From a virus (taxonomy: Duplodnaviria; Heunggongvirae; Uroviricota; Caudoviricetes), in IMG/VR virus record IMGVR_UViG_3300029288_007068: DNA of 64,000 bases. One strand, 5' to 3'. Shown in pieces: positions 4,458 to 44,094 of the stretch. Under the pieces are notes generated by a model. It worked only from the letters and a program-made list of their open reading frames with translations, did not search any database and was not told the DNA's origin. Made by a program: the position numbers and the translations under genes. Within the stretch, counting starts at the first letter, position 1. Every line of letters starts with the position of its first letter.

Positions 4458-4811
4458 TTAGACCACTGAAACTACTGAGTCGCCTTCTTCGAGGTTCACT
4501 AATCGAACACCTGATTTTCCCCGACCCATGAGTTTGATTTCGTCGACGCCTACGATAGCACCTTGTCCAAATTTGGTTAAGACAAAGACGACTCCACCAT
4601 CTTGGACTTTTACAACCGCAATGGTATTGCCCTTCTCTTTATCTTCCGCCAAAAACATTGCGCGGGTGCCTTTTGTTCCACGGTGTGATACGCGGAATTC
4701 GGCAAGAGTTGTTCGTGTCGCATACCCTTTGTCAGTCACAATGAGAACTTGCTCATCGGGACCGCGTTGGGTAGTTTCCTCTCCAGCTTCGATATTTTCT
4801 TCTTCTGCCAT
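4458..4811 (-). CDS. Hypothetical protein (acidic N-terminus)
   Basis: ORF with an upstream SD. No recognisable motif. Confidence 0.4.
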   Translation of the reverse strand: MAEEENIEAGEETTQRGPDEQVLIVTDKGYATRTTLAEFRVSHRGTKGTRAMFLAEDKEKGNTIAVVKVQDGGVVFVLTKFGQGAIVGVDEIKLMGRGKSGVRLVNLEEGDSVVSVV

Positions 4812-4850: not shown

Positions 4851-6380
4851 CTAAAGTATATCCTGAATTAGTTTTACATAAACAGTATTCCCAAACTTCT
4901 TCTTTAAGAACCACTTGTTTTTATTCGTATCATCTTCTTCTTCTGTTTCCAATTTCAGCGCCCGATTGTTTGCTGTAACTCTGGAACAATTATCCCAAGC
5001 AAACTGTAAATCCCTAATCCATTTTGACCTTCTAACCCAAACTTTATCTTTGACATTTCCTTTTGCGTTCTCTTTCAACAAACGCTTATAAGTATCTATC
5101 GACCTGTGAATCATATAAGTCATTTTTACTTTTTGTTCACTTGTTGGAATTAATAAATCTTCTATGTTATAAATTAGATTTCGCCACATTGGCTCAAAAA
5201 CTCTTTTAGCATAAAGAATATCTTCCGACTCAACGCTATTCCTCAAACATATAATGGCATGGTGAATCGCAAATCTAACCAATATCTCATAAATTCTATG
5301 GACAAATTCCGCCAACTTCTCTTGCGCAATTGAAGTAGTATCTTTAATCATCTCAACCAATTCATGGACAACATGCTTCAATTCTCCTTTTGATGTTTCG
5401 CTTATGTTAAAACAATATCCCTTCCAAATCGGCTTATCCAATCTATTGACTTCTGATTTAATCCAATTACAAAGCATATCTATCTGGGATTGATTGAACG
5501 TTGGCATAATCCTTTTTGCTATTCTCACAAGTTTCTCATCATCAATTCTAAACTTCTTTTCAGTTTCTATACCACCCAACTTTTGATACTTATCAATTAT
5601 AGTTTTAAGTCTATCTAATATCTCTTTATACTCTTTATCATAACTCTCTTCTGTCAGAGCATTCAACTTTTCAATAGCTTTATCTACCACTTTCATTCTT
5701 TCTTCGAGAGTTGGATTCTTCATGTTTGTAGTAAACCTTTGTATCACACCACGCTTCACCAGAGCCTCGATGAACTTGTCGGGAATATAAGTAGTAAAGA
5801 GGAATGAACAATGGGGCTTAAATCGAATTGCATCGGGTATAGAGCCAAGCTTCTTTGTTATCTCACAAGACGCATCATCCAAAGGATTCATGGCAACTTG
5901 AGCATAAGTTAAATTCTTTTTACTGAACTCAGTTTGATAATCAAACATTGGCGACGCCTCTTCCATTGATATCATATCTGCGTCTTCCATTAGTCCATGT
6001 ATAATTTCAAAACTCCCATCTGGCAACCGTTGTCCAGTCCCAACCAATCCCGCATCTGTTGCCTCTGTCAATTGCTCATCATGGAGTCCAACATCTTTTG
6101 CCAATCTCCGATAAAATCCATAACCGGAACCCTTACCTGTACCGGCGGGCATGATTAACAATAGGTGCATCCTAATATCTATCTTTCTTGCGCCGGCTCT
6201 GAAATAAATGTTTTTCAGGGCTTGTCCAAGAATAACATGGAGAATCATAACTCCATATTCTTTATTACTAATGGAGTATTCGTTAAAATGCTTTAAGAAG
6301 TCATGAATGAAATTATCGCCATATTTAGAGGAATCAAACTCTTCTTTAGTTGGTTTTTTAGTCATTTTAGTTCCACTCAT
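4851..6380 (-). CDS. Hypothetical 509-aa protein with glycine-rich loop (IMPAGTGKGSGYG); overlaps the start of the transglycosylase gene
   Basis: Long uninterrupted ORF whose start overlaps the downstream TGT-family gene by 14 nt. The glycine-rich motif resembles a nucleotide-binding loop but is not a canonical Walker A. Confidence 0.45.
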   Translation of the reverse strand: MSGTKMTKKPTKEEFDSSKYGDNFIHDFLKHFNEYSISNKEYGVMILHVILGQALKNIYFRAGARKIDIRMHLLLIMPAGTGKGSGYGFYRRLAKDVGLHDEQLTEATDAGLVGTGQRLPDGSFEIIHGLMEDADMISMEEASPMFDYQTEFSKKNLTYAQVAMNPLDDASCEITKKLGSIPDAIRFKPHCSFLFTTYIPDKFIEALVKRGVIQRFTTNMKNPTLEERMKVVDKAIEKLNALTEESYDKEYKEILDRLKTIIDKYQKLGGIETEKKFRIDDEKLVRIAKRIMPTFNQSQIDMLCNWIKSEVNRLDKPIWKGYCFNISETSKGELKHVVHELVEMIKDTTSIAQEKLAEFVHRIYEILVRFAIHHAIICLRNSVESEDILYAKRVFEPMWRNLIYNIEDLLIPTSEQKVKMTYMIHRSIDTYKRLLKENAKGNVKDKVWVRRSKWIRDLQFAWDNCSRVTANNRALKLETEEEDDTNKNKWFLKKKFGNTVYVKLIQDIL

Positions 6381-7497
6381 TATCTGTATCTATATCGCCG
6401 AGCCCATCTTGCCTCTTTGGCTCTCCATAGATAAGGTGATTGATTCCATCTTTGTATGTTTCTTTGTTCTTTCGATAAACCGGCTGTAATCTCAAAATCT
6501 TGTTAATGATGTCATCGAAACACTCATCATCTTGAACCATGACATTGACATAATCATTCCATCTCTTTCTGACATAGACGTTATGTAAAAGCATGGGATA
6601 ATAATTATTAATCATTTCATTAACTGTGTGCTTTGAACAAACCGGACAATCACATGGATTTGGACCATCCATATCAAACTTAACTTGTGCTTCTAAATTC
6701 TTTTTGGTATAAGAAAGCGAACTCAAGTAATATGGGTCGTGATACTTACCCATCATCAAACCCATGGCGGCACTTGATGTATCATATGTGTAAAATCTTT
6801 TAAACTTGTGAGCCATCTTTGCAAATATTACAACAAGCAATGGCTCACACTTACCAAGAAAATGGAAATTAGTCCCAATCTCTTTCGCAAATTGCAATTG
6901 AGAAAGCCAGTTTTGTTGATACGCGGGATTAAATGAAGACCACATTGGAAACGTATAACCGGGAAACTCACCATAAGTTTTCGTTAGGTGCTCGTGCCAC
7001 TTCATCATATCGTTATAATTTCCACCTTGAATGACCGCCCATATTTGAGTATCTTTATAACCTTCTGACTTATATTCTTCTAACTTAGATGCGGCAGTCC
7101 AAGCATTAGCATTTGATATCTCCATGTATTTTTTAAAGTCATCTTCTGGGTAATATTTTAAGTTATCTACTTCTGAACGATAAGCGTATGCTGGAACATC
7201 TACAGTAAAAGCAACGTTGGCTTTGATTTTCTTTACTTGCCATTCCAAGACATCTAAACAAGAAACCTTTTTACCCAACTTACTAATTTGAAACCCACCT
7301 GAATCAGCAACTATATAATCAGCTTCTGGGAAATCTGCGTCTCGAGTTTTATTCATTCCCGTAACGAAAGGTGACGCAAAGACATATGGATAATAAAAAT
7401 AGGGATTATCTTTATACCAATGCATTGCCCGCCGCCATTCTTCACGCTTGAATGTAATGCTGACAGGCATATAAATTGTGCCTTTTCTCTCTGCCAC
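6367..7497 (-). CDS. tRNA-guanine transglycosylase family protein (phage DpdA-like DNA 7-deazaguanine transglycosylase)
   Basis: Catalytic-aspartate motif ADSGGFQ and C-terminal zinc site CDCPVCSKH (CxCxxC...H), both typical of the TGT superfamily. Adjacent to folE and queE. Confidence 0.6.
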   Translation of the reverse strand: MAERKGTIYMPVSITFKREEWRRAMHWYKDNPYFYYPYVFASPFVTGMNKTRDADFPEADYIVADSGGFQISKLGKKVSCLDVLEWQVKKIKANVAFTVDVPAYAYRSEVDNLKYYPEDDFKKYMEISNANAWTAASKLEEYKSEGYKDTQIWAVIQGGNYNDMMKWHEHLTKTYGEFPGYTFPMWSSFNPAYQQNWLSQLQFAKEIGTNFHFLGKCEPLLVVIFAKMAHKFKRFYTYDTSSAAMGLMMGKYHDPYYLSSLSYTKKNLEAQVKFDMDGPNPCDCPVCSKHTVNEMINNYYPMLLHNVYVRKRWNDYVNVMVQDDECFDDIINKILRLQPVYRKNKETYKDGINHLIYGEPKRQDGLGDIDTDNEWN

Positions 7498-7499
7498 TT

Positions 7500-7883
7500 T
7501 TATTCCTCTTCTTCAACTAATTGTGTAGAGTCTATTTCATGTTGGTCGCGGAGATAATCGCCCACACAAGCTTCGCACACATGTGCCGACCCATTATCTA
7601 TACAACATATATCATCATCAACAGTCAGTGACGACCGACATTGGTCGCATTTTTCCACATATTCTTTACATAAGGGACATATCACGTGTTCTTCCATTGA
7701 TATCCACTCCTCTATTATTTTATCCATTCTCTCGGCTTTTGTATTTTTCATTTTTTGTTGGTAATTTTTTATTCTTCGTTTAAATGGCGCGGGATTCTGC
7801 GCATACTTCTTATTGTTATACTTATTTTGTGACTTTCTTATCTGTGGTTTATGAGTTAAATAATATTCTCTCGAATACGGCAC
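7500..7883 (-). CDS. Cys-rich basic zinc-binding protein
   Basis: Several CxxC pairs (CPLCKEY, CDQC, CEAC) and a basic N-terminus. Confidence 0.4.
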   Translation of the reverse strand: MPYSREYYLTHKPQIRKSQNKYNNKKYAQNPAPFKRRIKNYQQKMKNTKAERMDKIIEEWISMEEHVICPLCKEYVEKCDQCRSSLTVDDDICCIDNGSAHVCEACVGDYLRDQHEIDSTQLVEEEE

Positions 7884-8495
7884 TCACTCACGCTCACATA
7901 TTGATATCAAGTTCAATACTTCTTGACGAGCACCATTGTTTGTTTTAAATGCACCCCGAACTTCTGATGTAATGGTTCTTGTTGTATCATTTTTGGTTTC
8001 CCTTGATGACACACAAAGATGTTTTGCATCCACCACAACCATAACTCCTCTACATTCTAATGTTTTATATAAGCCGTCGGCTATCTGTTGTGTCATGCGT
8101 TCTTGAATTTGGAGTCTTCTGGCATAAATCTCAACAAGCTTAACTAATTTATCAAGACCAGTTACATATTTTGATGGGATATAAGCAATATACGCTTTTC
8201 CAAAGAAAGGCGCCATATGATGTTCACAAAATGAATAAAAAGAAATTGGTCCTTCTACCACTATTCCACAAGTTTCAGTAAACTGACGATTTAAAACATC
8301 TGCTGGTTTAAAATCATATCCACCAAACCACTCTTCGTATGCTTTAGCGACACGATATGGAGTTGCTTTAAGTCCTTCCCTATCTGGGTTTTCTCCTATT
8401 TCTCTTAAAAGAGTTTTGACAGCAGAATGAATATATTTGTTATTACGTAAATTTTGACGACACTCTTTGATTTCCATTAAACAACCTCTCGCCAC
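7884..8495 (-). CDS. folE: GTP cyclohydrolase I
   Basis: FolE signatures CEHHMAPF and QERMTQQIA. Length 203 aa. Confidence 0.8.
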   Translation of the reverse strand: MARGCLMEIKECRQNLRNNKYIHSAVKTLLREIGENPDREGLKATPYRVAKAYEEWFGGYDFKPADVLNRQFTETCGIVVEGPISFYSFCEHHMAPFFGKAYIAYIPSKYVTGLDKLVKLVEIYARRLQIQERMTQQIADGLYKTLECRGVMVVVDAKHLCVSSRETKNDTTRTITSEVRGAFKTNNGARQEVLNLISICERE

Positions 8496-8579
8496 CGATG
8501 GATAGATACCCCTATCTGAATAACTTCTCTAAACCAATAATGATAATATAAGATATGTCTTTATAAAATTTTTGGTAAG

Positions 8580-8729
8580 TTAATCATCACTTGTTTTCTT
8601 TATCTGTCGAAGCACGAAAACATATTTGCCTTTTGTTGCGCTCATTCTCTCCGACCACCGATATTGTTTAAGGTCAACTTCATTTGCTTCCTCTACATTG
8701 TCCTTTTCTATAAAATTTACTTGTGCCAT
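8580..8729 (-). CDS. Small hypothetical protein (49 aa), absent from the ORF track
   Basis: Hand-translated: MAQVNFIEKDNVEEANEVDLKQYRWSERMSATKGKYVFVLRQIKKTSDD. SD AAGAGGAAT upstream and a class-1 promoter motif at 8762..8794. Confidence 0.3.
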   Translation of the reverse strand: MAQVNFIEKDNVEEANEVDLKQYRWSERMSATKGKYVFVLRQIKKTSDD

Positions 8730-8791
8730 ATTTATTCCTCTTAATTTCCAAATATGTTGGTAATATATAAATTTTTAGATTGTCTTAATAG

Positions 8792-8923
8792 TTTAAAATT
8801 CTTCTGAATACATCTTTCTATACTTCTTATAGTGTTCTCGACAACAGAAGTTATGCTTTGTATGATAAACCGATTCCCGGCTTTTCTCAAATTTCTTTAG
8901 ACAATAATCACAATTGACTTTCA
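8792..8923 (-). CDS. Small zinc-finger protein (43 aa), absent from the ORF track
   Basis: Hand-translated: MKVNCDYCLKKFEKSRESVYHTKHNFCCREHYKKYRKMYSEEF. SD GGAGAAAA upstream. Confidence 0.3.
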
Positions 8924-9189
8924 TTTTTCTCCTTCTTCCTTTTACGCCACCGGGTAACTCTCTCAACATTTTTCTTTCTATTCATCTCATTGGCGCATTC
9001 TTCCGAACAATACCTTGTAACTTTTGTTCCATAATAATAGAAATCACAATCGGGATTAAGACACTTTTTGAGTTTTACCCTCTTCATCCTTCCTACTCGA
9101 TACTTTTTCTTTTTTATACACTCAGAACATTGCTTGTTATGACATGACTTCCCACAAGTCAAACATCTAATTACTTTTTTATACACCAC
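8908..9189 (-). CDS. Cys-rich basic zinc-ribbon protein
   Basis: CLTCGKSCHNKQCSECIKKKK and CLNPDCDF...CSEECANE motifs. Confidence 0.4.
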   Translation of the reverse strand: MVYKKVIRCLTCGKSCHNKQCSECIKKKKYRVGRMKRVKLKKCLNPDCDFYYYGTKVTRYCSEECANEMNRKKNVERVTRWRKRKKEKNESQL

Positions 9190-9841
9190 GTTTATTCCCC
9201 CACAATGTAATTTGCAGGCGCGGCGTTATTCTTCCATATCCAATTTCTTTAACCCACTCGACAATTTGAAGCATCTTAGAATTGATATCTTGTTCGTTTG
9301 TTCCTTCCGGCATAAAGTAGATGTTATCTTTGACATTTATGAGTGCACATATTCGTAGCACTTCATCGAAATCCTTCCGGTCACGAATGACGAATTTAAA
9401 TGCGTCAGCTTGCAGTGACCATTTACGAAGGACATCCAAATAGCGAGGATTGAGAAAGTCCGGTTTTGGGCTGACGATAAAGGTACAAAAGCCTATGATG
9501 AGAGGGCGGTAGATAGTACCGTTAGTTTCAATGTAAATGGTTTTACCGGTCTTGAAGAGTTCTTTAACAAGGTCTTCAATTTGAGGTTGAAGGAGAGGCT
9601 CACCACCGGTGATAACTATGTTCTGACATCTATCATCGATAAGGTCTATGATTTCACTTATCTGGAGGTCTTGTCCATCTTTCGCATATTTGCTGTCACA
9701 GAAATCACAAGTAAGGTTACAACCAGACAAACGAATGAACCAAGCTGGCATTCCTATTTGTGAACCTTCGCCCTGGATAGAATAAAAAGTTTCTGAAATT
9801 TTCATATCAACCCTTCCTATCTGGTGCCCAACCCTCAACAA
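9179..9841 (-). CDS. queE: 7-carboxy-7-deazaguanine synthase (radical SAM)
   Basis: Radical-SAM cluster motif in FIRLSGCNLTCDFCDSKY (CxxxCxxC in a QueE-like context). Length 220 aa. Confidence 0.7.
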   Translation of the reverse strand: MLRVGHQIGRVDMKISETFYSIQGEGSQIGMPAWFIRLSGCNLTCDFCDSKYAKDGQDLQISEIIDLIDDRCQNIVITGGEPLLQPQIEDLVKELFKTGKTIYIETNGTIYRPLIIGFCTFIVSPKPDFLNPRYLDVLRKWSLQADAFKFVIRDRKDFDEVLRICALINVKDNIYFMPEGTNEQDINSKMLQIVEWVKEIGYGRITPRLQITLWGNKRGV

Positions 9842-13038: not shown

Positions 13039-13467
13039 TTATAATGACAACTTTTTTGTGTCATAAGATTTAAACGGATACTCCAATCTATTCAATAATC
13101 CTTCAATGGTAGAAAATCGAGAAATAGGATAATACATCGCACTTCGTTCCAGAACACCATAGCACAAAACCGTCTTGCCTTTTGCTATCGCATACCCCAA
13201 CTCGATATTAGCACCATTAAACTTTTTTGGATTCTTTTCAGGTGCAACAATGACAACAACCTCTGAATTGTCGATACCGTTGAAATTACGTTCACATACC
13301 ATTTTTACTTGTGGTAAGTGATACCATTCCGAATCGGGACAGTTTATCATTTTATAGTCATGTTCCCACCATTTAATAGGGATACTGATTCCTTTTTCTT
13401 CGATTGCTTTCTCCACAACTTTAATTCTATCAAGCAAATCGAAACTACTCGCTATATAGATATTCAT
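13039..13467 (-). CDS. Nucleoside 2-deoxyribosyltransferase-like protein
   Basis: N-terminal MNIYIASSF and the VVVIVAPEKN...NIELGYAIAKGKTV pattern characteristic of the NDT / Rcl family. Confidence 0.45.
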   Translation of the reverse strand: MNIYIASSFDLLDRIKVVEKAIEEKGISIPIKWWEHDYKMINCPDSEWYHLPQVKMVCERNFNGIDNSEVVVIVAPEKNPKKFNGANIELGYAIAKGKTVLCYGVLERSAMYYPISRFSTIEGLLNRLEYPFKSYDTKKLSL

Positions 13468-18548: not shown

Positions 18549-19250
18549 TTATATACGTATACCCTTTATTAAGACATAACCACAGAAAGGCTTAAAAGTC
18601 TTATATTTTAATAAGACGTTATCCAATCTAACTATGAGTTTCAATACCTTCCTTACAATTGGTTTTATGGCGTTTGGAAGGCGGGATATTACATGAGGCA
18701 TCGAATAAGATATTAGCCAATAGTATTTAAGCTCTGTTATGGTAAAATATTCCTTTATTTTACCTTCAAGGACAGAGGGCTTAAACGGGCGTTCACTTTC
18801 CTCATGACTCATAGTCGGGAATGCCTTTCTTATTATGTAAGCGATGGGGTTTAGGCTCCCAGGTTCTTCTACTAATATTTGTCCACCAGGCTTTAAGATA
18901 CGATGTATCTCCTTTAACGCCAAATCCAAATTGTCAGGCACATGATGTAATATCGCCCTCGCCAAGACAACATCAAAGGTTTCATCTTTAAAAGGCATAT
19001 TGAGTATGTTGCCTTGTATTGGCGTTATTCCTGGTAAGTGCATCCCATCCGCTCCTACCATTATACTCCGGTCTATGTCGATTGATACAATTGTTGTGGT
19101 TTCGCTTTTTAATTGCTTAGCGAACTTTCCATTATTTCCTCCTAAATCAATTATATAACTTTTGGCTGGTAGTTGTAACTCTAATGGTTTAGTCCAAAGT
19201 TCATTTCCCAAAATCCGGACTGATTCTTTATCAACCTTATACTGTAACAT
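18549..19250 (-). CDS. Class I SAM-dependent methyltransferase
   Basis: Motif I IIDLGGNNGKF, VLARAILHHVPD, and post-I LKPGGQILVEE. Overlaps the OST gene end by 14 nt, so same operon. Confidence 0.55.
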   Translation of the reverse strand: MLQYKVDKESVRILGNELWTKPLELQLPAKSYIIDLGGNNGKFAKQLKSETTTIVSIDIDRSIMVGADGMHLPGITPIQGNILNMPFKDETFDVVLARAILHHVPDNLDLALKEIHRILKPGGQILVEEPGSLNPIAYIIRKAFPTMSHEESERPFKPSVLEGKIKEYFTITELKYYWLISYSMPHVISRLPNAIKPIVRKVLKLIVRLDNVLLKYKTFKPFCGYVLIKGIRI

Positions 19251-22200
19251 TGTGGGTATTCAACCCCGGCTTTGTAAAGATGGTTGTATCATATATTGAT
19301 GTTTCATTAACACCAAGTATTGATATCTTATAGTTTTGGGGTATCAGTTCAGTAAATTGGAAAGTATTGTTTCCCATAATCGGATATGTTTGTGATTGGT
19401 AATACTCTTTGCCCTCTATCATTAACGTTAATCCAGTTTGGTTTGTGTTAATGTTTACATCTAACGTCGACCAGTTAACGTCAAACGATACTGATTTATT
19501 ACAGGGAATATCTCTTCTTCCTTCTTCTTCTGTAACAATAATTGGTTGACTCATATCTAAAGTATTATCGGTAGTAAAGAGTCTTATCGTCAAGTTGCCA
19601 GCCGGCGCTATAAGACTAAACGTTCCATTTTCGTCAGTCATCCCATATCCATGTGGAATCCCAAAGTCATCAAAGACGTAAGCAAAGACGTATGGAAATG
19701 GTTGGTCACCAACTTTTACTGTTCCTGTGATTGTTGCGCCTTCATAGTATTTTGAGATAACAACAACCGGCGAATAGTATACTAATCTAAAATGTGTAAG
19801 CAGATACGTTGGCATCCTATTATCTGGGAACTCACCATAGCCCCAGTAAGTCTTATACCACAGAGTTTCGTAGAGAAGAGATTTAATTTTTACGTCTTGT
19901 TGCAAATCCATTTTATCTAACTCTTCTTGGGAAAGTTTTTGTAATTGTTGTAAAGTATAAAACTCATTCGTCTTGGCATCTCGCCACCACAAATAGTAAT
20001 AATCATCTTCTATGTAGTCCTGCGCAAAGCCCTGATATCCCCTGTCTGTAAGAAAAGTAAACACACCGAATATTTGAGTATCATATTGTTCTGTCCCATA
20101 ATAGCGGATAGAGTAACCGGTTGCATTTTGGATTGCCTTGTAAAACAACGTCATTTGTTCATCGGTCATATTTTGCATGAGTTTCCAAGAATCGTGATAC
20201 ATTGCGTTATCAGCCCGCTTTCTAAAGATAGTATTTCCATACTCCGGTGAATCCAGCGTATTGTAAGATGGACAGGTTGTCGGGTCTTCAATATACTGGA
20301 CTAAGATATCAGCGGATTGGATAGTTGACAAATTATAAAACGTAGCATTAGTTGGAAGATATGAACTTCGATAGATGGTTGGGTCTGATTGGTTAATTCT
20401 ATATTCATAGATTGGTGGTATATAAGTATTGAAAACTTCTTTTACTGTGTTTGAGAGTTTTCCGCCATTGTGGGATTTGGCGCCTTCACAACATCTAACT
20501 ATAAGAACTGACACTGCTTCTGTCTCAGTAGTAGAAAGTTTGAAGTTCCCTGATGCATACATTCCCACTTGATAGTTATCTGCCACGGTTGGATGCTTTC
20601 CCATAGCGGCTTCATAGAACCCGTAATCCCACCAGGATATAAATGCGGGTTTATCTTCATCTAAAGGTATTTCGGTATCTTGTAGTGATAACCAATAAAA
20701 AGCATCCGCCCAATAGATTTCTTTAGAAAGGGACGCACCGAAAGCGCCTTGCCATCCAGCACCAAAGTAATCTTCTTTCGACTCTGCTGGGATTGAAGCA
20801 TCTAACGCCAAAAGCGAGTTTGGTAAAATGAGTCCAACTATGATAAACAAAATCCCAAGAACTTGATATATCTTTATCGCCTTTCTCTTTCTCCAACCAC
20901 TCATTGACTTAAAGTTTTTAATTGTTTGTTTTAAGTTTAACTTATCAACTATAAGCATTATAAAGAAACCAGCTGCCACAGTAAACGCGGGAATGAGGTC
21001 ATTTAAGAATCGACCGGAAGTTGTTGTCAGGTAAAAAGTCAGGACAAATATATATAAGAAAAATATGCTCTCCGCTTTGAATTTCTCTTTATAAGACTTT
21101 ACAGCGTAAAGAACAAATCCACCAAGACCAATCCAATATAAAGCCGGACCGAAAGACATAATATTCTGACTCATTCCAAACGTATGCGCCTCTGCCACCG
21201 TCATTGATACTTTGCTCCCATAAATTCCTTCGCCAAACATCGTAATGGCAAGCTGAAGGAGAAACCCTTGTAACTTTATGATTCCTTGTGTGCCCAAGTA
21301 AAGGATTAACATCCCAACTGAACCTATTGATATCATAGATGGTATTGATATAATCCATGGAATATTTAGTTTGTTTATAACAAGGTATATTCCCAAGATG
21401 GCTATTGATATCAACATTGTTATAAAAGGCAAGTCAAATATTTGTCCTTGAATTAAAGCGTATGGGAAAGCAATTAAGTAAGCAACCAGGAAGAGCGCAA
21501 CAAAAGAATACATATTTTTGGTTGGAGTTTTCGACTTGAGAATATCAAAAATCATTATCACAAACATGGCAACCAAAGGCATCATAAAGGCAAGCTGGGA
21601 AGCCGCCCAAGTTAGATAAAGAGCACCAACGAATACGCCTGAAAGGGTGCCGTATAAAAGTGATGTAATCTGCTTCGGCTCTTTAAGCATTTTTATTATG
21701 AAGAAATAAAGACAGGCAAAGAGCAATAACACAAAGGAATCGTGGTCAAACAAGGCGAGGGAAGCGCCATGAGAACCTCCTATGTGTATGGGAATAAGGG
21801 CAACAAGGAAGGCAGCTATGAGACCAACCTTTCGGTTGAAAAGGTTTTTGGCTATTCCGTAAATTGGGAATATAAGTAGAGCCCCGTAGATGGCAGGAAG
21901 GAAAAGCATTGCCCATCCCATCGCATCTGTTGTAGTAGTGAAGGCACTAAGAGCTTGTGCAGTTGCAACTGCGACTAATGTAAACAGAGGCGGTCTGGAA
22001 CCTCTCTCACCTACGGGGTAGTTTAACAATGGGTCTGCGTCTCCGGAATGTGGTTGTGTAAAAGGATATGCTCCGGTTTGCATTGTAAGTTCAACTTGAC
22101 GCATATTCAGATATGGGTCGGGTCCTCCCAAGAAGAATCGTGTTCCCAGCGTCTCACCACTTGGATTAAAAGCGGCTCCCGACGTAAAGTTGAAGTAAGT

Positions 22201-22353
22201 TGTTAGAAACAATACCAAAGCAAATATACCTAAAAGCGTTATGGCGGTTATAATTGGTTTTCGGCTCTTTGATGTCTTTGGTTGTTCTTTTTTTGGTTGA
22301 ATAGATGTCTTAAATTTACCAGCTCTCTTTCTGCGCATGTTGTCTCTCCGCAT
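19237..22353 (-). CDS. aglB: Oligosaccharyltransferase of the AglB/STT3 family (1038 aa) with basic N-terminal extension and sequon-rich C-terminal domain
   Basis: First external loop GGPDPYLNMRQ (the DPYxNxR form typical of archaeal and eukaryotic STT3, coding around 22095..22125). About 13 hydrophobic helices. Universal catalytic motif SWWDYGFYEAAMG (coding 20617..20634). DK-like motif ADNYQVGMYASGNFK downstream. Confidence 0.7.
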   Translation of the reverse strand: MRRDNMRRKRAGKFKTSIQPKKEQPKTSKSRKPIITAITLLGIFALVLFLTTYFNFTSGAAFNPSGETLGTRFFLGGPDPYLNMRQVELTMQTGAYPFTQPHSGDADPLLNYPVGERGSRPPLFTLVAVATAQALSAFTTTTDAMGWAMLFLPAIYGALLIFPIYGIAKNLFNRKVGLIAAFLVALIPIHIGGSHGASLALFDHDSFVLLLFACLYFFIIKMLKEPKQITSLLYGTLSGVFVGALYLTWAASQLAFMMPLVAMFVIMIFDILKSKTPTKNMYSFVALFLVAYLIAFPYALIQGQIFDLPFITMLISIAILGIYLVINKLNIPWIISIPSMISIGSVGMLILYLGTQGIIKLQGFLLQLAITMFGEGIYGSKVSMTVAEAHTFGMSQNIMSFGPALYWIGLGGFVLYAVKSYKEKFKAESIFFLYIFVLTFYLTTTSGRFLNDLIPAFTVAAGFFIMLIVDKLNLKQTIKNFKSMSGWRKRKAIKIYQVLGILFIIVGLILPNSLLALDASIPAESKEDYFGAGWQGAFGASLSKEIYWADAFYWLSLQDTEIPLDEDKPAFISWWDYGFYEAAMGKHPTVADNYQVGMYASGNFKLSTTETEAVSVLIVRCCEGAKSHNGGKLSNTVKEVFNTYIPPIYEYRINQSDPTIYRSSYLPTNATFYNLSTIQSADILVQYIEDPTTCPSYNTLDSPEYGNTIFRKRADNAMYHDSWKLMQNMTDEQMTLFYKAIQNATGYSIRYYGTEQYDTQIFGVFTFLTDRGYQGFAQDYIEDDYYYLWWRDAKTNEFYTLQQLQKLSQEELDKMDLQQDVKIKSLLYETLWYKTYWGYGEFPDNRMPTYLLTHFRLVYYSPVVVISKYYEGATITGTVKVGDQPFPYVFAYVFDDFGIPHGYGMTDENGTFSLIAPAGNLTIRLFTTDNTLDMSQPIIVTEEEGRRDIPCNKSVSFDVNWSTLDVNINTNQTGLTLMIEGKEYYQSQTYPIMGNNTFQFTELIPQNYKISILGVNETSIYDTTIFTKPGLNTHNVTV

Positions 22354-31432: not shown

Positions 31433-32551
31433 TCACTCTCTCACCCGCAATTTTCTTGACCGAGAAGTTGTTGGAGGAATAGCTGAATTTAGTATATCCG
31501 CAAAGGGAGGCTCAGAAACGGTCTCCCGCTTTGGTGGTATTGGAACTACTCCAGCCATTTTCTCGGTAATAATGTTTGTGATGTTTGTGTTTGGGTCTAT
31601 GACGTATTTGGTATTATTTTCTAAGGATGCTTGTATGGTCTCTAATTTTTTCAAAACCTGGGCATTATCTATAAACGATTTATTAATTAGATTAAATGCC
31701 TCTGCTTGACCTTGTGCTATTAAGATTTGTGATTGTTTCTTCCCTTCAGCTTCAAGAATCCATGCCTGTTTTGTTCCCTCAGCGTTTTTAATTGATGCTC
31801 TTCTTTCTCCATCCGCCTGTGTTTCTGCCGCTGTCGCAAAATCAACCGCTGACCTTTTTTCATTTTCAGCCTTCAAAACCTTGTTCATCGTATCCTGAAC
31901 ATCTTGAGGCGGAGTAATTTCTTTCATTTCAACTCGAACAATCTTAACTCCCCAAGCATCTGATTCCTTATCTAATACTTCAGCAAGCGCAACATTTAAC
32001 TTGTTCCTTTGACTATTAACATCTTTAAAGGGCATAGTACCAATAACATTACGAGCTGTTGTTTGTGCTAACTTAATTATCTGAGCCTCAAAGTCCTGAA
32101 CATTATATAAAGATTTTTTGACGCTTTCATCTTCGCTTCTCACTTGGTAGTAAACCACTAAATCTACTTTCGCATTAAGGTTATCTTCAGTAATAATCTC
32201 TTGTGGCTCGACATCCATCATCTTCTCTGTCAAATTAACTTTATACATTTTATCGACCACCGGAATAATAAGGTGAAAACCCTGACTGGCAACATTTCTG
32301 AACTTTCCAAAACGTTCAATTACACCCTTTTCCATAGGTCTTATTATTCTTATTCCCATTGATATTATCCATAAAGGGATAACTATCGCAAAAAACCAGC
32401 CTACATATACCAATACTTGTCCTAACATATTTCCTACTCCTTCTATATTTATATTTGGGAATTTTACTCCCATTATAGATAAACCTGTAACTAACATTCC
32501 TCCAAGAATTAAATAAATTATCATGCCTCCCCAAAATCCATTTTTAGTCAT
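31433..32551 (-). CDS. SPFH / band-7 (stomatin-prohibitin-like) membrane protein
   Basis: N-terminal TM helices followed by the PHB-domain consensus HLIIPVVDKMYKVNLTEKMMDVEPQEIITEDNLNAKVDLVVYYQV, then a long coiled-coil. Confidence 0.7.
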   Translation of the reverse strand: MTKNGFWGGMIIYLILGGMLVTGLSIMGVKFPNINIEGVGNMLGQVLVYVGWFFAIVIPLWIISMGIRIIRPMEKGVIERFGKFRNVASQGFHLIIPVVDKMYKVNLTEKMMDVEPQEIITEDNLNAKVDLVVYYQVRSEDESVKKSLYNVQDFEAQIIKLAQTTARNVIGTMPFKDVNSQRNKLNVALAEVLDKESDAWGVKIVRVEMKEITPPQDVQDTMNKVLKAENEKRSAVDFATAAETQADGERRASIKNAEGTKQAWILEAEGKKQSQILIAQGQAEAFNLINKSFIDNAQVLKKLETIQASLENNTKYVIDPNTNITNIITEKMAGVVPIPPKRETVSEPPFADILNSAIPPTTSRSRKLRVRE

Positions 32552-32924: not shown

Positions 32925-33147
32925 TCTTTTTCACCTTCCTAATCGCTTCTTTCATAGCTTTACTACAACAACCATCGCAACCATGAACATTGAATCCAAA
33001 TTTGTTATCTGGGTCGTTTCTGGCAAGCCACTCGGCGTTTGGATGACCGATGCCATGCTTACATATATCTTCTACTAAGCCAGTCTCGCGTATGAATTGC
33101 TGAACAGCCCATCGTGGTTTTTTGTATTCTACCATAAATTGTAACAC
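32905..33147 (-). CDS. Small Cys/His-rich protein
   Basis: CKHGIGHPN ... HGCDGCC motif. Confidence 0.3.
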   Translation of the reverse strand: MLQFMVEYKKPRWAVQQFIRETGLVEDICKHGIGHPNAEWLARNDPDNKFGFNVHGCDGCCSKAMKEAIRKVKKNGNKIN

Positions 33148-34133
33148 CTCAATACTCCTTCTGTTTCCTGTGTCCTTTTGATATCATATTCGCCATCTTT
33201 AAATCGCTTGACGTAGTTGGGAATCTCTTTCCATTCGCGCGGGTCGTTTTCAAACCAACCATAAGACACTATTCCACATGATTCCAAAGCAACCCATTTG
33301 CGGAAGCAAGCCGGACAATGACCACAACTTCCAAGAGTGTTTTCATCATAACAACTGACTGACGCTTCGAGAACTCTTAAAACATAATTCATAGGATAGT
33401 TATCAATAAACCACTGAATGATGTCTGTCTTCGTCATCTCCCAAAAAGGCGACTCTATTGATATCTTTGGTTCATCTTTCTTTTTTATGAAGTTCATGGC
33501 ATGTGACATAACATCAAAGGCTTCTGGAGTCTTGTCTTCTACGTGGTCGCCTTTGACGCCACACATATAAATCTTATTACCATAGTAAGATGCGAGCGTA
33601 GCCAAGAGCAAATTCCGGTTGGGTATATATGCTTTATCTCCAACTTCAAACTCATGTAGGCTTGGTCCTTCAATGAATTTGAGCTTCATGTTTGGGATTA
33701 CTCTACATAACTCGTAGAGGCAATGAATTTCTTTATAGGCATACTTATGACTCAAATCAATGTAAATCGCTTGTGGGAAGTTTAGGTAGTGAAGTCCTAT
33801 AATGCTATCAACCCCACCAGAAAGCAATAGGACTTCCCTATCTAATTGGTGACATGCTTTATCGTCTACGTACAATTCTGCTTGTGGTTTCCCAAGAATG
33901 AGTTCATCATAGGGAACATTGTTTTTCTTAAGCCATGCTTCGGTCACTTCTCTATCCTCTTCGTATCTGGCTGAATGGAGAACTATAGTATACCCGCGTT
34001 GTTTTAAGTCAAAGAGCGTATCTATATTATAGGAATTTGGCGTCCTACTTGAGTAATAGGAATCGCCAAAGCCCTGAGTCTCTTTCGTAATGATTCCATC
34101 TATGTCTACGACTTTTATCTTCATGCGTAACAC
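33129..34133 (-). CDS. queC: HAD-like phosphatase domain fused to 7-cyano-7-deazaguanine synthase
   Basis: N-terminal roughly 95 aa carry HAD motif I VVDIDGIIT and LGKPQAELYVDDKA. The remainder has the QueC PP-loop LLLSGGVDS, IPNRNLLLATLASYY, and the zinc site CGHCPAC. Confidence 0.7.
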   Translation of the reverse strand: MLRMKIKVVDIDGIITKETQGFGDSYYSSRTPNSYNIDTLFDLKQRGYTIVLHSARYEEDREVTEAWLKKNNVPYDELILGKPQAELYVDDKACHQLDREVLLLSGGVDSIIGLHYLNFPQAIYIDLSHKYAYKEIHCLYELCRVIPNMKLKFIEGPSLHEFEVGDKAYIPNRNLLLATLASYYGNKIYMCGVKGDHVEDKTPEAFDVMSHAMNFIKKKDEPKISIESPFWEMTKTDIIQWFIDNYPMNYVLRVLEASVSCYDENTLGSCGHCPACFRKWVALESCGIVSYGWFENDPREWKEIPNYVKRFKDGEYDIKRTQETEGVLRCYNLW

Positions 34134-34696
34134 ATTACTGTATACTCGTATTGCTCAAACGAGATATCACTACCATCCCACACTTCAACAAGCCAATACA
34201 TAGTTTTATGACCACTGTATTGAGAAACTGTATAATTCCCATCACCACCGTAGACTATGCTATGTTGAATCCAACTTCCATTGAAGAAAGCATAATAAAA
34301 AGTAATTTTTAAATCACTATCATCAACGTCTTCCACAAGGACACTCAAATTATGTTTGTAACCATAATATTTATGATATCCTGTCACGTTTATTAGAGTT
34401 ATCGTCGGTGGAACGTTTATCGGAGCATCTTGTCCATCTTCACCATCTACGCCAGCGGGTCCTTGTGGTCCGGTTTCTCCTTGTCTTCCTTTTGAGCCTG
34501 TTTCTCCTTTTATTCCTGGGTCACCCGGTCTTCCCTGTAGTCCTTGAATTCCCTGTTCGCCTTGAATTCCTCTCTGACCTTGAGGACCGACAAATGCGTC
34601 TGTTTGTTGCCAATAATATAGCACACCAGCATCAAGCAATAAGGCGGCGATTGCCACTACAATTATTGCTACAGCCCCTTTTCTACTTCCTACCAT
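34121..34696 (-). CDS. Collagen-like (Gly-X-Y repeat) protein with N-terminal membrane / signal segment; probable fibre component
   Basis: About 20 uninterrupted GXY triplets (GPQGQRGIQGEQGIQGLQGRPGDPGIKGETGSKGRQGETGPQGPAGVDGEDG). The C-terminal globular domain has NxS/T sequons. Confidence 0.65.
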   Translation of the reverse strand: MVGSRKGAVAIIVVAIAALLLDAGVLYYWQQTDAFVGPQGQRGIQGEQGIQGLQGRPGDPGIKGETGSKGRQGETGPQGPAGVDGEDGQDAPINVPPTITLINVTGYHKYYGYKHNLSVLVEDVDDSDLKITFYYAFFNGSWIQHSIVYGGDGNYTVSQYSGHKTMYWLVEVWDGSDISFEQYEYTVMCYA

Positions 34697-39780: not shown

Positions 39781-39812
39781 CTTTATAAGGGTTTAGGAAG
39801 GGTTAATAGTTT
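39781..39812 (-). promoter_or_regulatory. Class-1 bipartite promoter motif (variant TTATAAAGG)
   Basis: Minus strand AACTATTAAC, 14 nt, CCTTATAAAGG. Confidence 0.4.
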
Positions 39813-41649: not shown

Positions 41650-42567
41650 TTAATGAACTAACTTCTTATCTTCTCGCTTGGAATTCGCCAATTGCAACAT
41701 ATGGTTGTACGCGCAACCTGGGTTACATCCTTTGATATCCATCTCCCAGTCTTTCTGTAGCCGCTCCAAATTGATATCAAATATCCTATGCTCTTGGCAT
41801 TTTAAACCCCTTACATCTGGGCACGTCATTATGCTACCATCTTCGTCTATTGTCAAATACTCTATCGAGCCACCACAATGCCAATCCAAATTCAAACCAT
41901 ACTTCGGAAGCAGTTCGAAGTATTCGCGAACGTTATGAAGCATAATACTTGGGTCATCTTTCAACGCAAGAAGCTCCTGTGATATCCATTCCAACTCTTT
42001 TTGGTTGAGCAACATCTCAGGGCAATTCTCCCTGAAGCGCCATATCTGACTCTTTCCAGAGTGGACATATCCAACAATCGACCAAATCCCAAGAGATGAC
42101 AAATGCCTAATCAACTCGGGAATGTATTTGTAACTCTTTTTATGAATAATCATATTTCCGCACACATCGGGAACTCCCTGTTGCTTTGCCCTAAGAAGAG
42201 ATTCATACCCTTTGTGGGATTTAAGGTCTATACTCTTGAGTGACGTAAAGTGGTTGTTAGGCAAAATATCTATGCTACAAGTTACATTCTTAAACTCGGA
42301 GTAACCATAGTCGATTGTTCCATTAGTTATGACAGCGTATGGGATGTCGAGCTCATTGGCGCGACGAAGGAGAACCATGAAATCTTGGCGGACAAGTGGC
42401 TCACCGCCAAAGAAGATTAAGATTTCCGGGTTGATTTCTTTGACCTTATCAAGGACTTTCAGCGCCCATTCAGTATTCAGAGTAGGACGACGCTCTTTGT
42501 AAACACGGCAGTAACTGCAAGACAAATTACATTGTCGTGTCGTAAACCAACAGACTTGTCTAATCAT
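41650..42567 (-). CDS. Radical SAM enzyme with C-terminal SPASM-like cysteine cluster
   Basis: N-terminal TRQCNLSCSYCRV (CxxxCxxC). C-terminal cysteine clusters (CGGSIEY...CPD, CNPGCAYNH). Confidence 0.6.
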   Translation of the reverse strand: MIRQVCWFTTRQCNLSCSYCRVYKERRPTLNTEWALKVLDKVKEINPEILIFFGGEPLVRQDFMVLLRRANELDIPYAVITNGTIDYGYSEFKNVTCSIDILPNNHFTSLKSIDLKSHKGYESLLRAKQQGVPDVCGNMIIHKKSYKYIPELIRHLSSLGIWSIVGYVHSGKSQIWRFRENCPEMLLNQKELEWISQELLALKDDPSIMLHNVREYFELLPKYGLNLDWHCGGSIEYLTIDEDGSIMTCPDVRGLKCQEHRIFDINLERLQKDWEMDIKGCNPGCAYNHMLQLANSKREDKKLVH

Positions 42568-43079: not shown

Positions 43080-43415
43080 TTATCCATATCCAAACATCCT
43101 ATCATATCTATGATGGTTCAAAACGTCTAAAATAGCTGTTAATATTTTTACTCTTCCTTGTGGCATAATAGTATAAATTAATCTCCAACCAGGACGTCTA
43201 TTTGAAAGTTCATATCTCCATAAGTTACTTATACCATAATGTTTATACTTGCTGGGCCACCGCGCTGGTGGAATTTTATTACCACACTGTGGATTTCTTT
43301 TTAAGTTATCGGTAGCAATATCAAATTCTCTTCCCAAGTTAAATTGCCTAACAATGTTCTTAACATCTCTTTTTACAGTATCACTATAAAAACCTATATA
43401 GTATTCCTTATTCAT
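43080..43415 (-). CDS. RelE/ParE-family type II toxin
   Basis: C-terminal NLWRYELSNRRPGWRLIYTIMPQGRVKILTAILDVLNHHRYDRMF matches the RelE/ParE core pattern (R-x-G-x-YR-x-I-Y ... HR-x-D). Confidence 0.5.
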   Translation of the reverse strand: MNKEYYIGFYSDTVKRDVKNIVRQFNLGREFDIATDNLKRNPQCGNKIPPARWPSKYKHYGISNLWRYELSNRRPGWRLIYTIMPQGRVKILTAILDVLNHHRYDRMFGYG

Positions 43416-43703: not shown

Positions 43704-43738
43704 ATATTTAAATATTTTATGGTAAAGTTTAATAGTTT
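43704..43738 (-). promoter_or_regulatory. Class-1 bipartite promoter motif (variant ATTTAAATA)
   Basis: Minus strand AACTATTAAA, 14 nt, ATTTAAATATC. Confidence 0.4.
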
Positions 43739-44094
43739 AACTTACTCTGAGAAACAGATTCACTTGCCCAACTTGTAGCGCTTTCCCACACCTTTACCGA
43801 CACTGTTGTCTCCGGGTATCTCAACGAAATGGCATTCGCCAGATGATGTGCGATATTCTCAGCTGTTGGATTCTCAAAGTAATCATTGAGGTCGGTGTGG
43901 TCAAACTTATTTATGATATCTTTGACTTCTTTAAAATCAACCAGCATTCCTATCTCTTTATTTATGAGACCTATGATTTCCACTTCTATTTTAAAAGAAT
44001 GTCCATGAACATTTTTACAGAGACCATTGTAGCCAGGAAGGTGGTGTGCGGCTGATATTGTTGTTTCAGTATGAATCTTCATAACAACCACCAA
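43729..44094 (-). CDS. queD: 6-carboxy-5,6,7,8-tetrahydropterin synthase
   Basis: 121 aa. Zinc-binding CKNVHGHSF (Cx3HGH) and the HTETTIS N-terminal His typical of QueD/PTPS. Confidence 0.7.
   Translation of the reverse strand: MVVVMKIHTETTISAAHHLPGYNGLCKNVHGHSFKIEVEIIGLINKEIGMLVDFKEVKDIINKFDHTDLNDYFENPTAENIAHHLANAISLRYPETTVSVKVWESATSWASESVSQSKLNY

What the first reader, a model, noticed from the sequence alone, without database searches (positions are those of the whole stretch)
6367..9841. Complete 7-deazaguanine DNA hypermodification pathway, dispersed over three loci
A TGT-family transglycosylase (DSGGFQ catalytic motif and CxCxxC...H zinc site, DpdA-like), FolE and QueE lie together at 6.4-9.8 kb. 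QueC (33129..34133) and QueD (43729..44094) are elsewhere. FolE + QueD + QueE + QueC make preQ0. A DpdA-like enzyme exchanges guanine in DNA for the 7-deazaguanine base. So the virus most likely replaces part of its G with dPreQ0 or a derivative, a known anti-restriction strategy. The split arrangement, rather than a single cassette, and the absence of QueF or an amidotransferase (ArcS / Gat-QueC) suggest dPreQ0, or possibly an unknown derivative, as the end product.
Basis: partly seen in the sequence, partly recalled or inferred. Interest (0 to 1): 0.65.

Follow-up and report, generated by a model that had tools for sequence, protein, structure and literature searches.

The report
Non-canonical viral 7-deazaguanine DNA pathway
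This virus-like archaeal element carries the genes to make a 7-deazaguanine base and probably swap it for guanine in its own DNA, but three parts are unusual (a new transglycosylase clade, a phosphatase-fused QueC-like enzyme and an extra radical-SAM enzyme), so the final base may not be the expected preQ0.

Summary
All five ORFs exist at the stated coordinates, on the minus strand. FolE, QueD and QueE are solid, so synthesis of 7-carboxy-7-deazaguanine (CDG) is well supported.

1. The "QueC" is a HAD-phosphatase::QueC-like fusion. It keeps the ATP loop, IPNRN and the zinc motif, but lacks two canonical substrate-pocket motifs (YxQxHxxE, YPDC).
2. A second radical-SAM gene (41650-42567) belongs to the pathway. 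In 79 IMG/VR loci holding this QueC-like family, 69 have the HAD, 60 have this radical-SAM and 51 have FolE+QueD+QueE, typically in the order QueD-QueE-FolE-rSAM-QueC-like-HAD.
3. The transglycosylase has the TGT fold, both catalytic Asp and the Zn site, but belongs to no described DpdA subfamily. Its closest solved sequence is the ArcTGT catalytic domain, and it lacks the tRNA-binding domains.

In those cassettes, 71 loci carry a DpdA1-type gene, 7 carry this type, and none carries both. This supports a DNA-insertase role.

No QueF, ArcS or glutamine amidotransferase is in the window, but the window is only 64 kb of a roughly 141 kb contig.

Verdict: a real DNA 7-deazaguanine system and a new variant of a known kind. 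The end product is unresolved.

The parts
6367..7497 (-). TGT-superfamily guanine transglycosylase, catalytic domain only (376 aa). A new clade, here called 'A1-type'; candidate DNA 7-deazaguanine insertase.
7884..8495 (-). FolE, GTP cyclohydrolase I (GTP -> H2NTP).
   Evidence: PF01227 E 8e-67; TIGR00063 196 bits against a cut-off of 181.6. Adjacent to the TGT in most relatives.
9179..9841 (-). QueE, radical-SAM CDG synthase. The likely true start is the ATG at 9805.
   Evidence: The five best NCBIfam hits are QueE models (8.8e-31 to 4.4e-17). CxxxCxxC and the QGEG motif are present. Conserved upstream of FolE/TGT in relatives.
33849..34133 (-). N-terminal minimal HAD phosphatase domain (aa 1-95) of the fusion protein.
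   Evidence: DIDG / SAR / GKP / DD motifs. PDB 1xpj E 1.8e-5; TIGR01689 9e-10; phage PNKP 3'-phosphatase domains E 1e-11. The domain is fused N-terminally, C-terminally, or encoded as an adjacent ORF in relatives.
33129..33839 (-). QueC-like PP-loop ATPase domain (non-canonical QueC, 'QueCL').
   Evidence: SGGVDS, IPNRN and SCY-x6-C-xx-C-xx-CFRKW are present. YxQxHxxE and YPDC are absent, judged against the signature in PMC13329287. PF06508 E 1.3e-14.
41650..42567 (-). Second radical-SAM enzyme ('rSAM2', 305 aa, twitch/SPASM-type).
43729..44094 (-). QueD, 6-carboxytetrahydropterin synthase.
   Evidence: PF01242 E 9e-27; TIGR03367 86.8 bits (cut-off 89.25); CKNVHGH = CxxxHGH.

Best explanation
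This is a six-gene 7-deazaguanine DNA-modification system in a virus-like element whose host is probably an archaeon. The host link to Thermoplasmatota rests on two MAG bins only.

Proposed steps:
1. FolE, QueD and QueE convert GTP to 7-carboxy-7-deazaguanine (CDG). This is shown at the family and motif level.
2. A non-canonical QueC-family ATP-dependent enzyme, physically fused to a HAD phosphatase, works with a dedicated twitch-type radical-SAM enzyme (41650-42567) to turn CDG into the base that is used. The linkage is shown; the chemistry is inferred.
3. A catalytic-domain-only TGT enzyme sits at the head of the replication gene block. It is related most closely in sequence to ArcTGT but lacks its tRNA-binding domains. 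It exchanges guanine in the element's DNA for that base after replication, as an anti-restriction measure. This step is inferred.

My estimate for the inserted base is about 55-60% for a known base (dPreQ0 or dADG) reached by a non-canonical route, and about 35-40% for a derivative not yet described.
For: Enzyme calls.

The TGT keeps both catalytic Asp (D65, D239), the base-binding D100 and Q157, and the Zn site.

The TGT is 376 aa against 582 aa for ArcTGT, with no PUA or C1-C3 domains.

In all close relatives it lies directly next to FolE/QueE and to a conserved block ending in an AEP primase: a P-loop 509-aa protein, a GyrA-C-like protein, and 342-, 382- and 260-aa proteins.

In 79 IMG/VR loci with the same QueC-like family, 71 carry a DpdA1-type gene (the same profile scores phage VogelGryff DpdA at 250 bits), 7 carry this A1-type TGT, and none carries both. 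The same iterative profile also reaches the window's own clade at E 1e-7 to 1e-27.

Cassette statistics: HAD in 69 of 79 loci (9 fused, 27 upstream, 33 downstream); rSAM2 in 60 of 79, adjacent in 37; all six genes in 41, despite truncated contigs.

The HAD is fused at the opposite end in P0087, P0090, P0092, P0094, P0105 and P0109.

Cassettes with a canonical QueC (L005/L006, phage VogelGryff) lack rSAM2 and HAD.

The motif that forms the amine pocket in QueC and RoyL (Y..H..E) is remodelled here.

All characterised virus-encoded TGT homologues found with preQ0 genes act on DNA (PMC6884629, PMC10516641).
Against: - No biochemical or mass-spectrometry data exist, so the DNA target is inferred.
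- By sequence the TGT is nearer to tRNA-acting ArcTGT than to any DpdA. Structure comparison does not discriminate between them.
- Relatives L003 and L064 fill the QueC slot with a different QueC type, and L007 has Gat-QueC plus QueCL. This fits QueCL being simply an isofunctional preQ0 synthase.
- In the window itself, rSAM2 and QueCL are 8 kb apart, and 26-34 kb from the TGT.
- No capsid, terminase or portal gene was found in the window, so 'virus' is not proven.
- 77 kb of the contig was not seen.
Confidence: 0.72

Rival explanations
1. Plain dPreQ0 pathway. The QueC-like domain is an ordinary preQ0 synthase, the TGT inserts preQ0 into DNA, and the HAD domain and second radical SAM have unrelated or merely auxiliary roles (for example, pyrophosphate or phosphate clearance).
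For: - QueCL keeps the PP-loop, IPNRN, the Zn motif and the essential Tyr after the first Cys.
- It is the only QueC-family gene in the window.
- In L007 it coexists with Gat-QueC, just as QueC does in G+ phages.
- All base-contacting residues shared with the preQ0-specific ArcTGT are conserved.
- No QueF, ArcS or GATase is in the window.
Against: - Y35 and Y131, shown essential in E. coli QueC, are not conserved.
- 87% HAD linkage and 76% rSAM2 linkage, with fusions in both orientations, are hard to explain for irrelevant genes.
- Canonical-QueC cassettes do without both genes.
Confidence: 0.3
2. tRNA modification. The enzyme is a virus-borne ArcTGT that loads preQ0 onto G15 of host tRNAs, to be matured to archaeosine by the host, and does not act on DNA.
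For: - The best sequence match of the family profile is P. horikoshii ArcTGT (E 1.9e-12), and the best NCBIfam hit is TgtA.
- The likely hosts are archaea that use archaeosine: an archaeal-type AglB, Hjc in a relative, and hits in Thermoplasmatales MAGs.
Against: - The three C-terminal domains, including PUA, that ArcTGT uses to hold tRNA are absent. This is true of all ~50 family members of 355-386 aa.
- There are no tRNA genes in the window.
- The gene is embedded in the replication module.
- It occupies the DpdA1 slot in homologous cassettes, mutually exclusively.
- The host would already have its own ArcTGT and preQ0 supply.
Confidence: 0.1
3. Small-molecule route. The QueCL-rSAM2-phosphatase module makes a free deazapurine metabolite or nucleoside (as in toyocamycin, huimycin or roseomycin-type clusters) that acts on the host rather than being installed in DNA.
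For: - A cellular-looking contig (L093) has QueE-FolE2-rSAM-QueCL-rSAM2-GT4-PHP and no TGT.
- Divergent QueC homologues (RoyL) make CDG amides in natural-product clusters.
- Glycosyltransferase and methyltransferase genes lie near rSAM2 in the window, L010 and L001.
Against: - 78 of 80 viral QueCL loci carry a DNA or TGT-type transglycosylase next to the module.
- The window's GT2, MT24 and p225 genes are not conserved with the cassette.
Confidence: 0.07

Closest known systems
DpdA1-type dPreQ0/dG+ cassettes of Queuovirinae phages (9g, CAjan, VogelGryff)
   Same: FolE + QueD + QueE + a QueC-family enzyme + a TGT-superfamily base-exchange enzyme in a viral genome. Expected result: post-replicative G -> 7-deazaguanine exchange that protects against restriction.
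   Different: - The transglycosylase is not DpdA1 (hhalign probability 0.3%).
- The QueC is non-canonical and fused to a HAD.
- There is an extra radical SAM.
- The genes are dispersed over 38 kb.
- The host is archaeal.
Archaeosine tRNA-guanine transglycosylase (ArcTGT/TgtA, PDB 1iq8)
   Same: Closest solved sequence (E 1.9e-12, 18% identity). Shares the catalytic Asp pair, the D130/Q169 equivalents, and the CxCxxC...H zinc site. ArcTGT is preQ0-specific.
   Different: Only the catalytic TIM-barrel is present. The C1, C2 and PUA tRNA-binding domains are missing. The GGVVP loop is GY(T/S)xP here. TIGR00432 scores 37.8 against a cut-off of 350.
DpdA4 (DUF6610) of haloarchaeal virus HVTV-1, and DpdA + ArcS of Sulfolobus viruses
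   Same: Archaeal viruses with 7-deazaguanine in DNA and a divergent TGT homologue.
   Different: No DUF6610 match. No QueF or ArcS in the window. No tblastn match to any GenBank virus.
RoyL-type deazapurine amide-bond synthetases (divergent QueC)
   Same: A QueC-fold enzyme in a CDG-producing cluster with altered specificity. This is a precedent for QueC homologues that couple CDG to amines other than ammonia.
   Different: RoyL keeps Tyr41/His45/Glu48, whereas the window protein has remodelled that motif. RoyL clusters lack a transglycosylase, a HAD and rSAM2.
ArcS-RaSEA (amine adduct, then radical-SAM cleavage) in archaeosine synthesis
   Same: Conceptual parallel only: a deazaguanine side-chain enzyme paired with a dedicated radical-SAM partner.

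Membership tests
TGT superfamily (PF01702) | TIM-barrel TGT fold | tested here: met
TGT superfamily (PF01702) | Two catalytic Asp (DSGGxQ and xxDSS) and the CxCxxC...H zinc site | tested here: met
   D65, D239, C282, C284, C287 and H305 are invariant in 29 sequences and align to ArcTGT D95, D249, C279, C281, C284 and H307.
TGT superfamily (PF01702) | Pfam gathering score | tested here: not met
   20.3 bits against a cut-off of 26.3 for the window protein. Most homologues do carry a precomputed PF01702 hit.
ArcTGT (TgtA, TIGR00432) | C-terminal C1-C2-PUA tRNA-binding domains; equivalog score | tested here: not met
   376 aa against 582 aa, with the match confined to chain residues 91-332. No PUA hit. 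37.8 bits against a cut-off of 350.
DpdA1 (phage 9g/CAjan type) | Detectable profile similarity to a DpdA1 member | tested here: not met
   hhalign A1 against VogelGryff DpdA: probability 0.3%. hmmsearch: -0.3 bits. A 4-round jackhmmer seeded on a DpdA1-like ORF does reach the A1 clade (E 1e-27 to 1e-5), so the relationship is distant homology, not membership.
DpdA2 (Vibrio phage nt-1/KVP40 type) | Profile similarity to a DpdA2 member | tested here: inconclusive
   hhalign against KVP40.0122 (my choice of DpdA2 candidate, made by position): probability 20%, E 1e-3. DSGGxQ and YDSS align.
DpdA3 (phiST/CP220 type) | Similarity to CGPG_00065-like proteins | not tested
   No reference sequence was fetched. 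Indirect evidence only: no tblastn hit in 50,697 GenBank phage records and no PHROG hit.
DpdA4 (DUF6610, PF20314) | Match to PF20314 | tested here: not met
   The Pfam scan at E <= 0.01 returned only PF01702.
DpdA (functional class: DNA-guanine transglycosylase) | Acts on DNA | not testable with these tools
   Context only: the replication-module position and mutually exclusive replacement of DpdA1 (71 vs 7 vs 0).
FolE (GTP cyclohydrolase I) | Curated model cut-offs | tested here: met
   PF01227 224.6 bits; TIGR00063 196.4 bits against a cut-off of 181.6.
QueD (CPH4 synthase) | PTPS fold plus the CxxxHGH motif | tested here: met
   PF01242 93.9 bits (gathering score 22.4). CKNVHGH is present, so it is not the DpdL variant LxxxHRH. 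TIGR03367 86.8 bits, just under the 89.25 cut-off.
QueE (CDG synthase) | Radical-SAM CxxxCxxC and best match to QueE models | tested here: met
   The five top NCBIfam hits are QueE families (8.8e-31 to 4.4e-17), all below their equivalog cut-offs. CNLTCDFC is present.
Canonical QueC (PF06508 cluster 1, Libby et al. 2026) | SGGxDS, VPxRN, and C-x8-CxxCxxC with Tyr after the first Cys | tested here: met
   SGGVDS, IPNRN, SCYDENTLGSCGHCPAC.
Canonical QueC (PF06508 cluster 1, Libby et al. 2026) | YxQxHxxE and YPDC motifs (Y35 and Y131 are essential) | tested here: not met
   DLSHKYAYKE and EDKTPE lie at the aligned positions. The family consensus is GxKGDxVxDKNPxAF. TIGR00364 scores 40.8 bits against a cut-off of 150.3.
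HAD phosphatase superfamily | Motifs I-IV (DxD, S/T, K, DD) | tested here: met
   DIDG, HSAR, GKP and VDD are conserved in both N- and C-terminal fusions. 1xpj E 1.8e-5; TIGR01689 9e-10.

The most novel reading that the evidence does not exclude
The QueC-like / HAD / radical-SAM trio makes a 7-deazaguanine derivative not yet described in DNA. Examples would be an N-substituted 7-amido base formed from CDG and a phosphorylated amine and then trimmed, or a radical-SAM-remodelled side chain. This uncharacterised cassette is widespread in uncultivated viruses. It is installed by DpdA1 in most of them and by a new ArcTGT-like DNA transglycosylase clade in archaeal viruses such as this one.
Probability: 0.35. 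Interest if true: 0.8.

Novelty: new variant of a known kind. Interest (0 to 1): 0.62.

Why it matters
7-deazaguanine DNA modifications are a major viral counter-defence, and eight derivatives are known. This locus adds three things:
- a candidate new DNA-transglycosylase clade derived from the ArcTGT side of the family, in archaeal viruses;
- a conserved three-part module (non-canonical QueC, HAD phosphatase, twitch radical SAM) seen in at least 120 viral contigs, with rSAM2 absent from every sequenced isolate (a weak QueC-like match occurs in a few, e.g. Bacteroides phage BS162P1), which implies either a new route to preQ0/ADG or a new base;
- a clean, testable case of transglycosylase displacement within one cassette.

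The genes are small and could be expressed in E. coli queC/queF deletion strains with LC-MS/MS read-out, the assay already used in this field.

Tried and rejected
- **Megablast of 20 kb, and tblastn of the TGT, against 50,697 GenBank phage records:** no match.
- **Recovering the source contig:** exact look-ups of window proteins (QueC P0056 and the 640-aa ORF) were not on record. The remaining ~77 kb could not be searched for queF, arcS or gat-queC.
- **IMG/VR scan with the rSAM2 alignment:** I approached it from the QueC-like side instead.
- **Structure comparison to separate DpdA from tRNA TGTs:** not discriminating.
- **Local hhalign parsing:** failed, so I redid it with the comparison tool.
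- **Glycosylated base:** considered because GT genes lie near rSAM2 in the window, L010, L001 and L093. Rejected as a main claim because the window's GT2, MT24 and p225 have no counterparts in any related locus.
- **rSAM2 as a substitute QueE:** rejected. The window, L003, L007 and most cassettes carry both, and the A2 HMM separates the two families cleanly (over 100 bits against under 36 bits).
- **RaSEA-like role:** no ArcS is present, and the fold and family hits are twitch/SPASM types.
- **PHROG and Pfam scans for capsid, terminase or portal genes in the window:** none found.
- **Literature search for a named DpdA5 or similar:** nothing.

Full report
**Observation**

The window (37.6% GC) is densely packed with minus-strand ORFs.

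- **FolE (7884-8495)** is unambiguous: PF01227 E 8e-67, and above the TIGR00063 cut-off.
- **QueD (43729-44094)** hits PTPS at 9e-27. It carries the QueD signature CxxxHGH (CKNVHGH), not the LxxxHRH of the proposed decarboxylase DpdL.
- **QueE (9179-9841)** has CNLTCDFC, and its five best NCBIfam hits are QueE families (8.8e-31 to 4.4e-17), although below the equivalog cut-offs.

Synthesis of 7-carboxy-7-deazaguanine (CDG) from GTP is therefore well supported.

**The transglycosylase (6367-7497)**

Sequence hits are weak. Pfam TGT is below the gathering score (E 3e-4), and NCBIfam TgtA matches only part of the protein (7.8e-10).

About 55 homologues were found. None carries an informative name, and all but two come only from metagenome sources; P0038 and P0053 are NCBI MAG records. 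A 29-sequence alignment shows these residues to be invariant: D65-S-G-G-x-Q70, D100, Q157/G158, D239, C282/C284/C287 and H305.

The family profile best matches the catalytic domain of P. horikoshii ArcTGT (1iq8, E 1.9e-12, chain residues 91-332). In that alignment the residues above line up with D95, D130, Q169, D249 and the zinc ligands.

The protein belongs to no described viral DpdA subfamily:
- hhalign probability is 0.3% against VogelGryff DpdA1 and 20% against the KVP40 DpdA2 candidate.
- There is no DUF6610 (DpdA4) hit.
- There is no PHROG hit.
- There is no tblastn hit in 50,697 GenBank phage records.
- DpdA3 was not tested directly.

It lacks the C1, C2 and PUA domains with which ArcTGT binds tRNA. 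All close family members are 355-386 aa.

**Context of the transglycosylase**

In every close relative with enough flanking DNA, the order is QueE-(FolE)-TGT-(509-aa P-loop protein)-GyrA-C-like protein-342 aa-382 aa; where the flank extends further (the window and L003), a 260-aa protein and an AEP primase follow. The gene therefore sits at the head of the replication block.

The host is probably archaeal:
- an AglB/STT3 gene is in the window;
- a 62.7 kb relative encodes Hjc, and L003 encodes RFC and XPF-like genes;
- two homologues lie in Thermoplasmatales MAGs.

No capsid, terminase or portal gene was found in the window. Calling it a 'virus' rests on gene content (YopX, DenV, FEN, AEP primase, an integrase-like gene, mostly ORFans, no tRNA genes).

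**The 'QueC' is a fusion, and it is not canonical**

Residues 1-95 form a complete minimal HAD phosphatase, with motifs DIDG, SAR, GKP and DD. Its best matches are PDB 1xpj, TIGR01689 and phage PNKP 3'-phosphatase domains.

Residues ~99-334 form a PF06508 domain. I judged it against the experimentally defined QueC signature (PMC13329287).
- Kept: SGGxDS, VPxRN (as IPNRN), and C-x8-CxxCxxC with the essential Tyr after the first Cys.
- Lost: YxQxHxxE (here DLSHKYAYKE) and YPDC (here EDKTPE), including the essential Y35 and Y131.

The first lost motif forms the amine pocket in QueC and RoyL. The family has its own signature: GxKGDxVxDKNPxAF, SPFWxMTK and CGxCPxCFRKW.

The HAD is N-terminal in the window's lineage. 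It is C-terminal in P0087, P0090, P0092, P0094, P0105 and P0109. It is a separate adjacent ORF in L008 and in most IMG/VR loci. This is a classic Rosetta-stone link between two proteins.

**A sixth gene**

Local tblastn of window ORFs against related loci showed a second radical SAM (41650-42567, CNLSCSYC, with conserved C-terminal Cys residues). It travels with the deazaguanine genes in L003, L007, L008, L010, L045, L061 and L064. It also does so in L093-L095.

An IMG/VR scan with the QueC-like alignment returned at least 120 relatives, of which 80 were kept. HMM tabulation of 79 loci gave:

| Feature within the locus | Loci (of 79) |
|---|---|
| HAD present | 69 (9 fused, 27 upstream, 33 downstream) |
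| rSAM2 present | 60 (adjacent in 37) |
| FolE + QueD + QueE | 51 |
| All six genes | 41 |

The typical order is QueD-QueE-FolE-rSAM2-QueCL-HAD on one strand. Many contigs are truncated, so these counts are lower bounds.

Cassettes with a canonical QueC (L005/L006 and phage VogelGryff) have neither rSAM2 nor the HAD. No GenBank phage isolate carries rSAM2.

**Evidence that the TGT acts on DNA**

In the QueC-like cassettes, the ORF next to QueCL/HAD belongs to the DpdA1 family. The same jackhmmer profile scores VogelGryff DpdA at 250 bits.

Of 80 loci, 71 carry that DpdA1-type gene and 7 carry the window's A1-type TGT. None carries both, and the 2 truncated loci carry neither. The A1-type enzyme therefore replaces a proven DNA insertase family in an otherwise homologous cassette.

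The same profile reaches the window's own clade at E 1e-7 to 1e-27. The two families are distant homologues.

**What the product is**

The window has no QueF, ArcS, GATase or second T-fold protein among ORFs of 78 aa or more. The same holds for about 40 kb of annotated sequence from a 62.7 kb relative. However, the window is only 64 kb of a contig of about 141 kb.

Two points favour plain preQ0:
- L003 and L064 fill the QueC slot with another QueC type placed next to rSAM2.
- L007 has Gat-QueC together with QueCL, as G+ phages have QueC plus Gat-QueC.

Three points favour something else:
- the amine pocket is remodelled;
- the phosphatase and radical SAM are obligatory partners;
- RoyL shows that QueC homologues can couple CDG to other amines.

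I therefore commit to DNA 7-deazaguanine modification at about 0.72. The identity of the base remains open: roughly 55-60% for a known base reached by a new route, and 35-40% for a new derivative.

One mechanistic guess, which is inference only: QueCL adenylates CDG and couples it to a phosphorylated amine donor. The HAD then removes the phosphate, and rSAM2 trims or remodels the adduct, by analogy with ArcS-RaSEA.

**Layout**

The dispersal over three (really four) sites is real and lineage-specific. The sites are TGT/FolE/QueE at 6.4-9.8 kb, HAD-QueCL at 33.1-34.1 kb, rSAM2 at 41.7-42.6 kb and QueD at 43.7-44.1 kb. A 62.7 kb relative shows the same dispersal. Bacterial-virus cassettes are contiguous.

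**Rivals**

- A tRNA-modifying role (about 0.1) is disfavoured by the missing tRNA-binding domains, the replication context and the DpdA1 displacement.
- A free-metabolite role (about 0.07) is suggested by the TGT-less cellular cluster L093. It is contradicted by the transglycosylase present in 78 of 80 viral loci.

**Novelty**

This is a new variant of a known kind. No named counterpart was found in the searchable literature.

Noticed in passing
window 4458-4811 (-): A 117-aa protein made only of GyrA C-terminal beta-pinwheel repeats (PF03989, E 9e-19). It lies directly downstream of the TGT/509-aa pair and is conserved in that position in nearly all relatives (L001, L034-L058). It could be a DNA-binding partner of the replication or modification machinery.
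   Followed up: partly
window 19237-22353 (-): A 1038-aa AglB/STT3 oligosaccharyltransferase (PF02516 E 8e-14, AglB core). It is encoded by a virus-like element together with GT2 (38617-39393) and two SAM methyltransferases (18549-19250, 39812-40561). This suggests the element remodels N-glycosylation.
   Followed up: no
window 13039-13467 (-); L003 2845-3444: A nucleoside 2-deoxyribosyltransferase-like protein (PF05014; E 7e-6 in the window, clear in L003). In L003 it lies next to dUTPase and the QueD-QueE-FolE2-TGT run. It could be an accessory for nucleotide-pool handling linked to the modification.
   Followed up: partly
L093 6634-13027 (JGI 3300031578, cellular-looking contig): An operon of QueE-like rSAM, FolE2, a 417-aa rSAM, QueC-like, rSAM2, a GT4 glycosyltransferase and a PHP phosphoesterase, with no transglycosylase. 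This looks like a deazapurine natural-product cluster sharing the QueCL/rSAM2 pair, with PHP in place of the HAD.
   Followed up: partly
L007 105-12252 (IMGVR_UViG_3300009553_000019, 152 kb): An expanded cluster: QueE, rSAM2 (403 aa), an FkbM methyltransferase, Gat-QueC (576 aa), QueC-like, a second methyltransferase-like gene, a 587-aa A1-type TGT with a long C-terminal extension, and FolE. It is likely a more elaborate hypermodification.
   Followed up: partly
L095 7380-8939 and 13813-17403: FolE is interrupted by a LAGLIDADG element and PolA by an intein/HNH element, inside a QueD-QueE-FolE-rSAM2-QueCL::HAD-DpdA1 cassette. UDG::PolA fusions sit next to the cassette in L008 and L094, and in L110 a UDG::3'-5' exonuclease ORF lies just upstream of a separate PolA ORF.
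   Followed up: no
window 43080-43666 (-): An overlapping 84-aa + 111-aa gene pair between rSAM2 and QueD. It resembles a toxin-antitoxin pair and is conserved in L001 (45-57% identity) next to a GT1-like gene.
   Followed up: no
window 34121-34696 (-), 31433-32551 (-): A membrane-anchored collagen-repeat protein (GxY repeats, PF01391) whose stop overlaps the start of the HAD-QueC gene, and an SPFH/Band-7 protein. Both are unusual cargo. An SPFH homologue is also present in the 62.7 kb relative.
   Followed up: no
window 1-64000: No capsid, portal, terminase or tail gene was recognised by Pfam or PHROGs among about 90 ORFs scanned, and there are no tRNA genes. The viral nature of the element is inferred, not shown.
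   Followed up: partly
L096 9001-10624 (Bacteroides phage BS162P1, OP172706.1): A cultured phage with an unannotated QueC-like gene (A4 HMM 121 bits) next to an unannotated DpdA1-like gene and QueE. It could serve as a culturable entry point for studying the QueC-like family, although rSAM2 and the HAD were not seen in the region fetched.
   Followed up: partly
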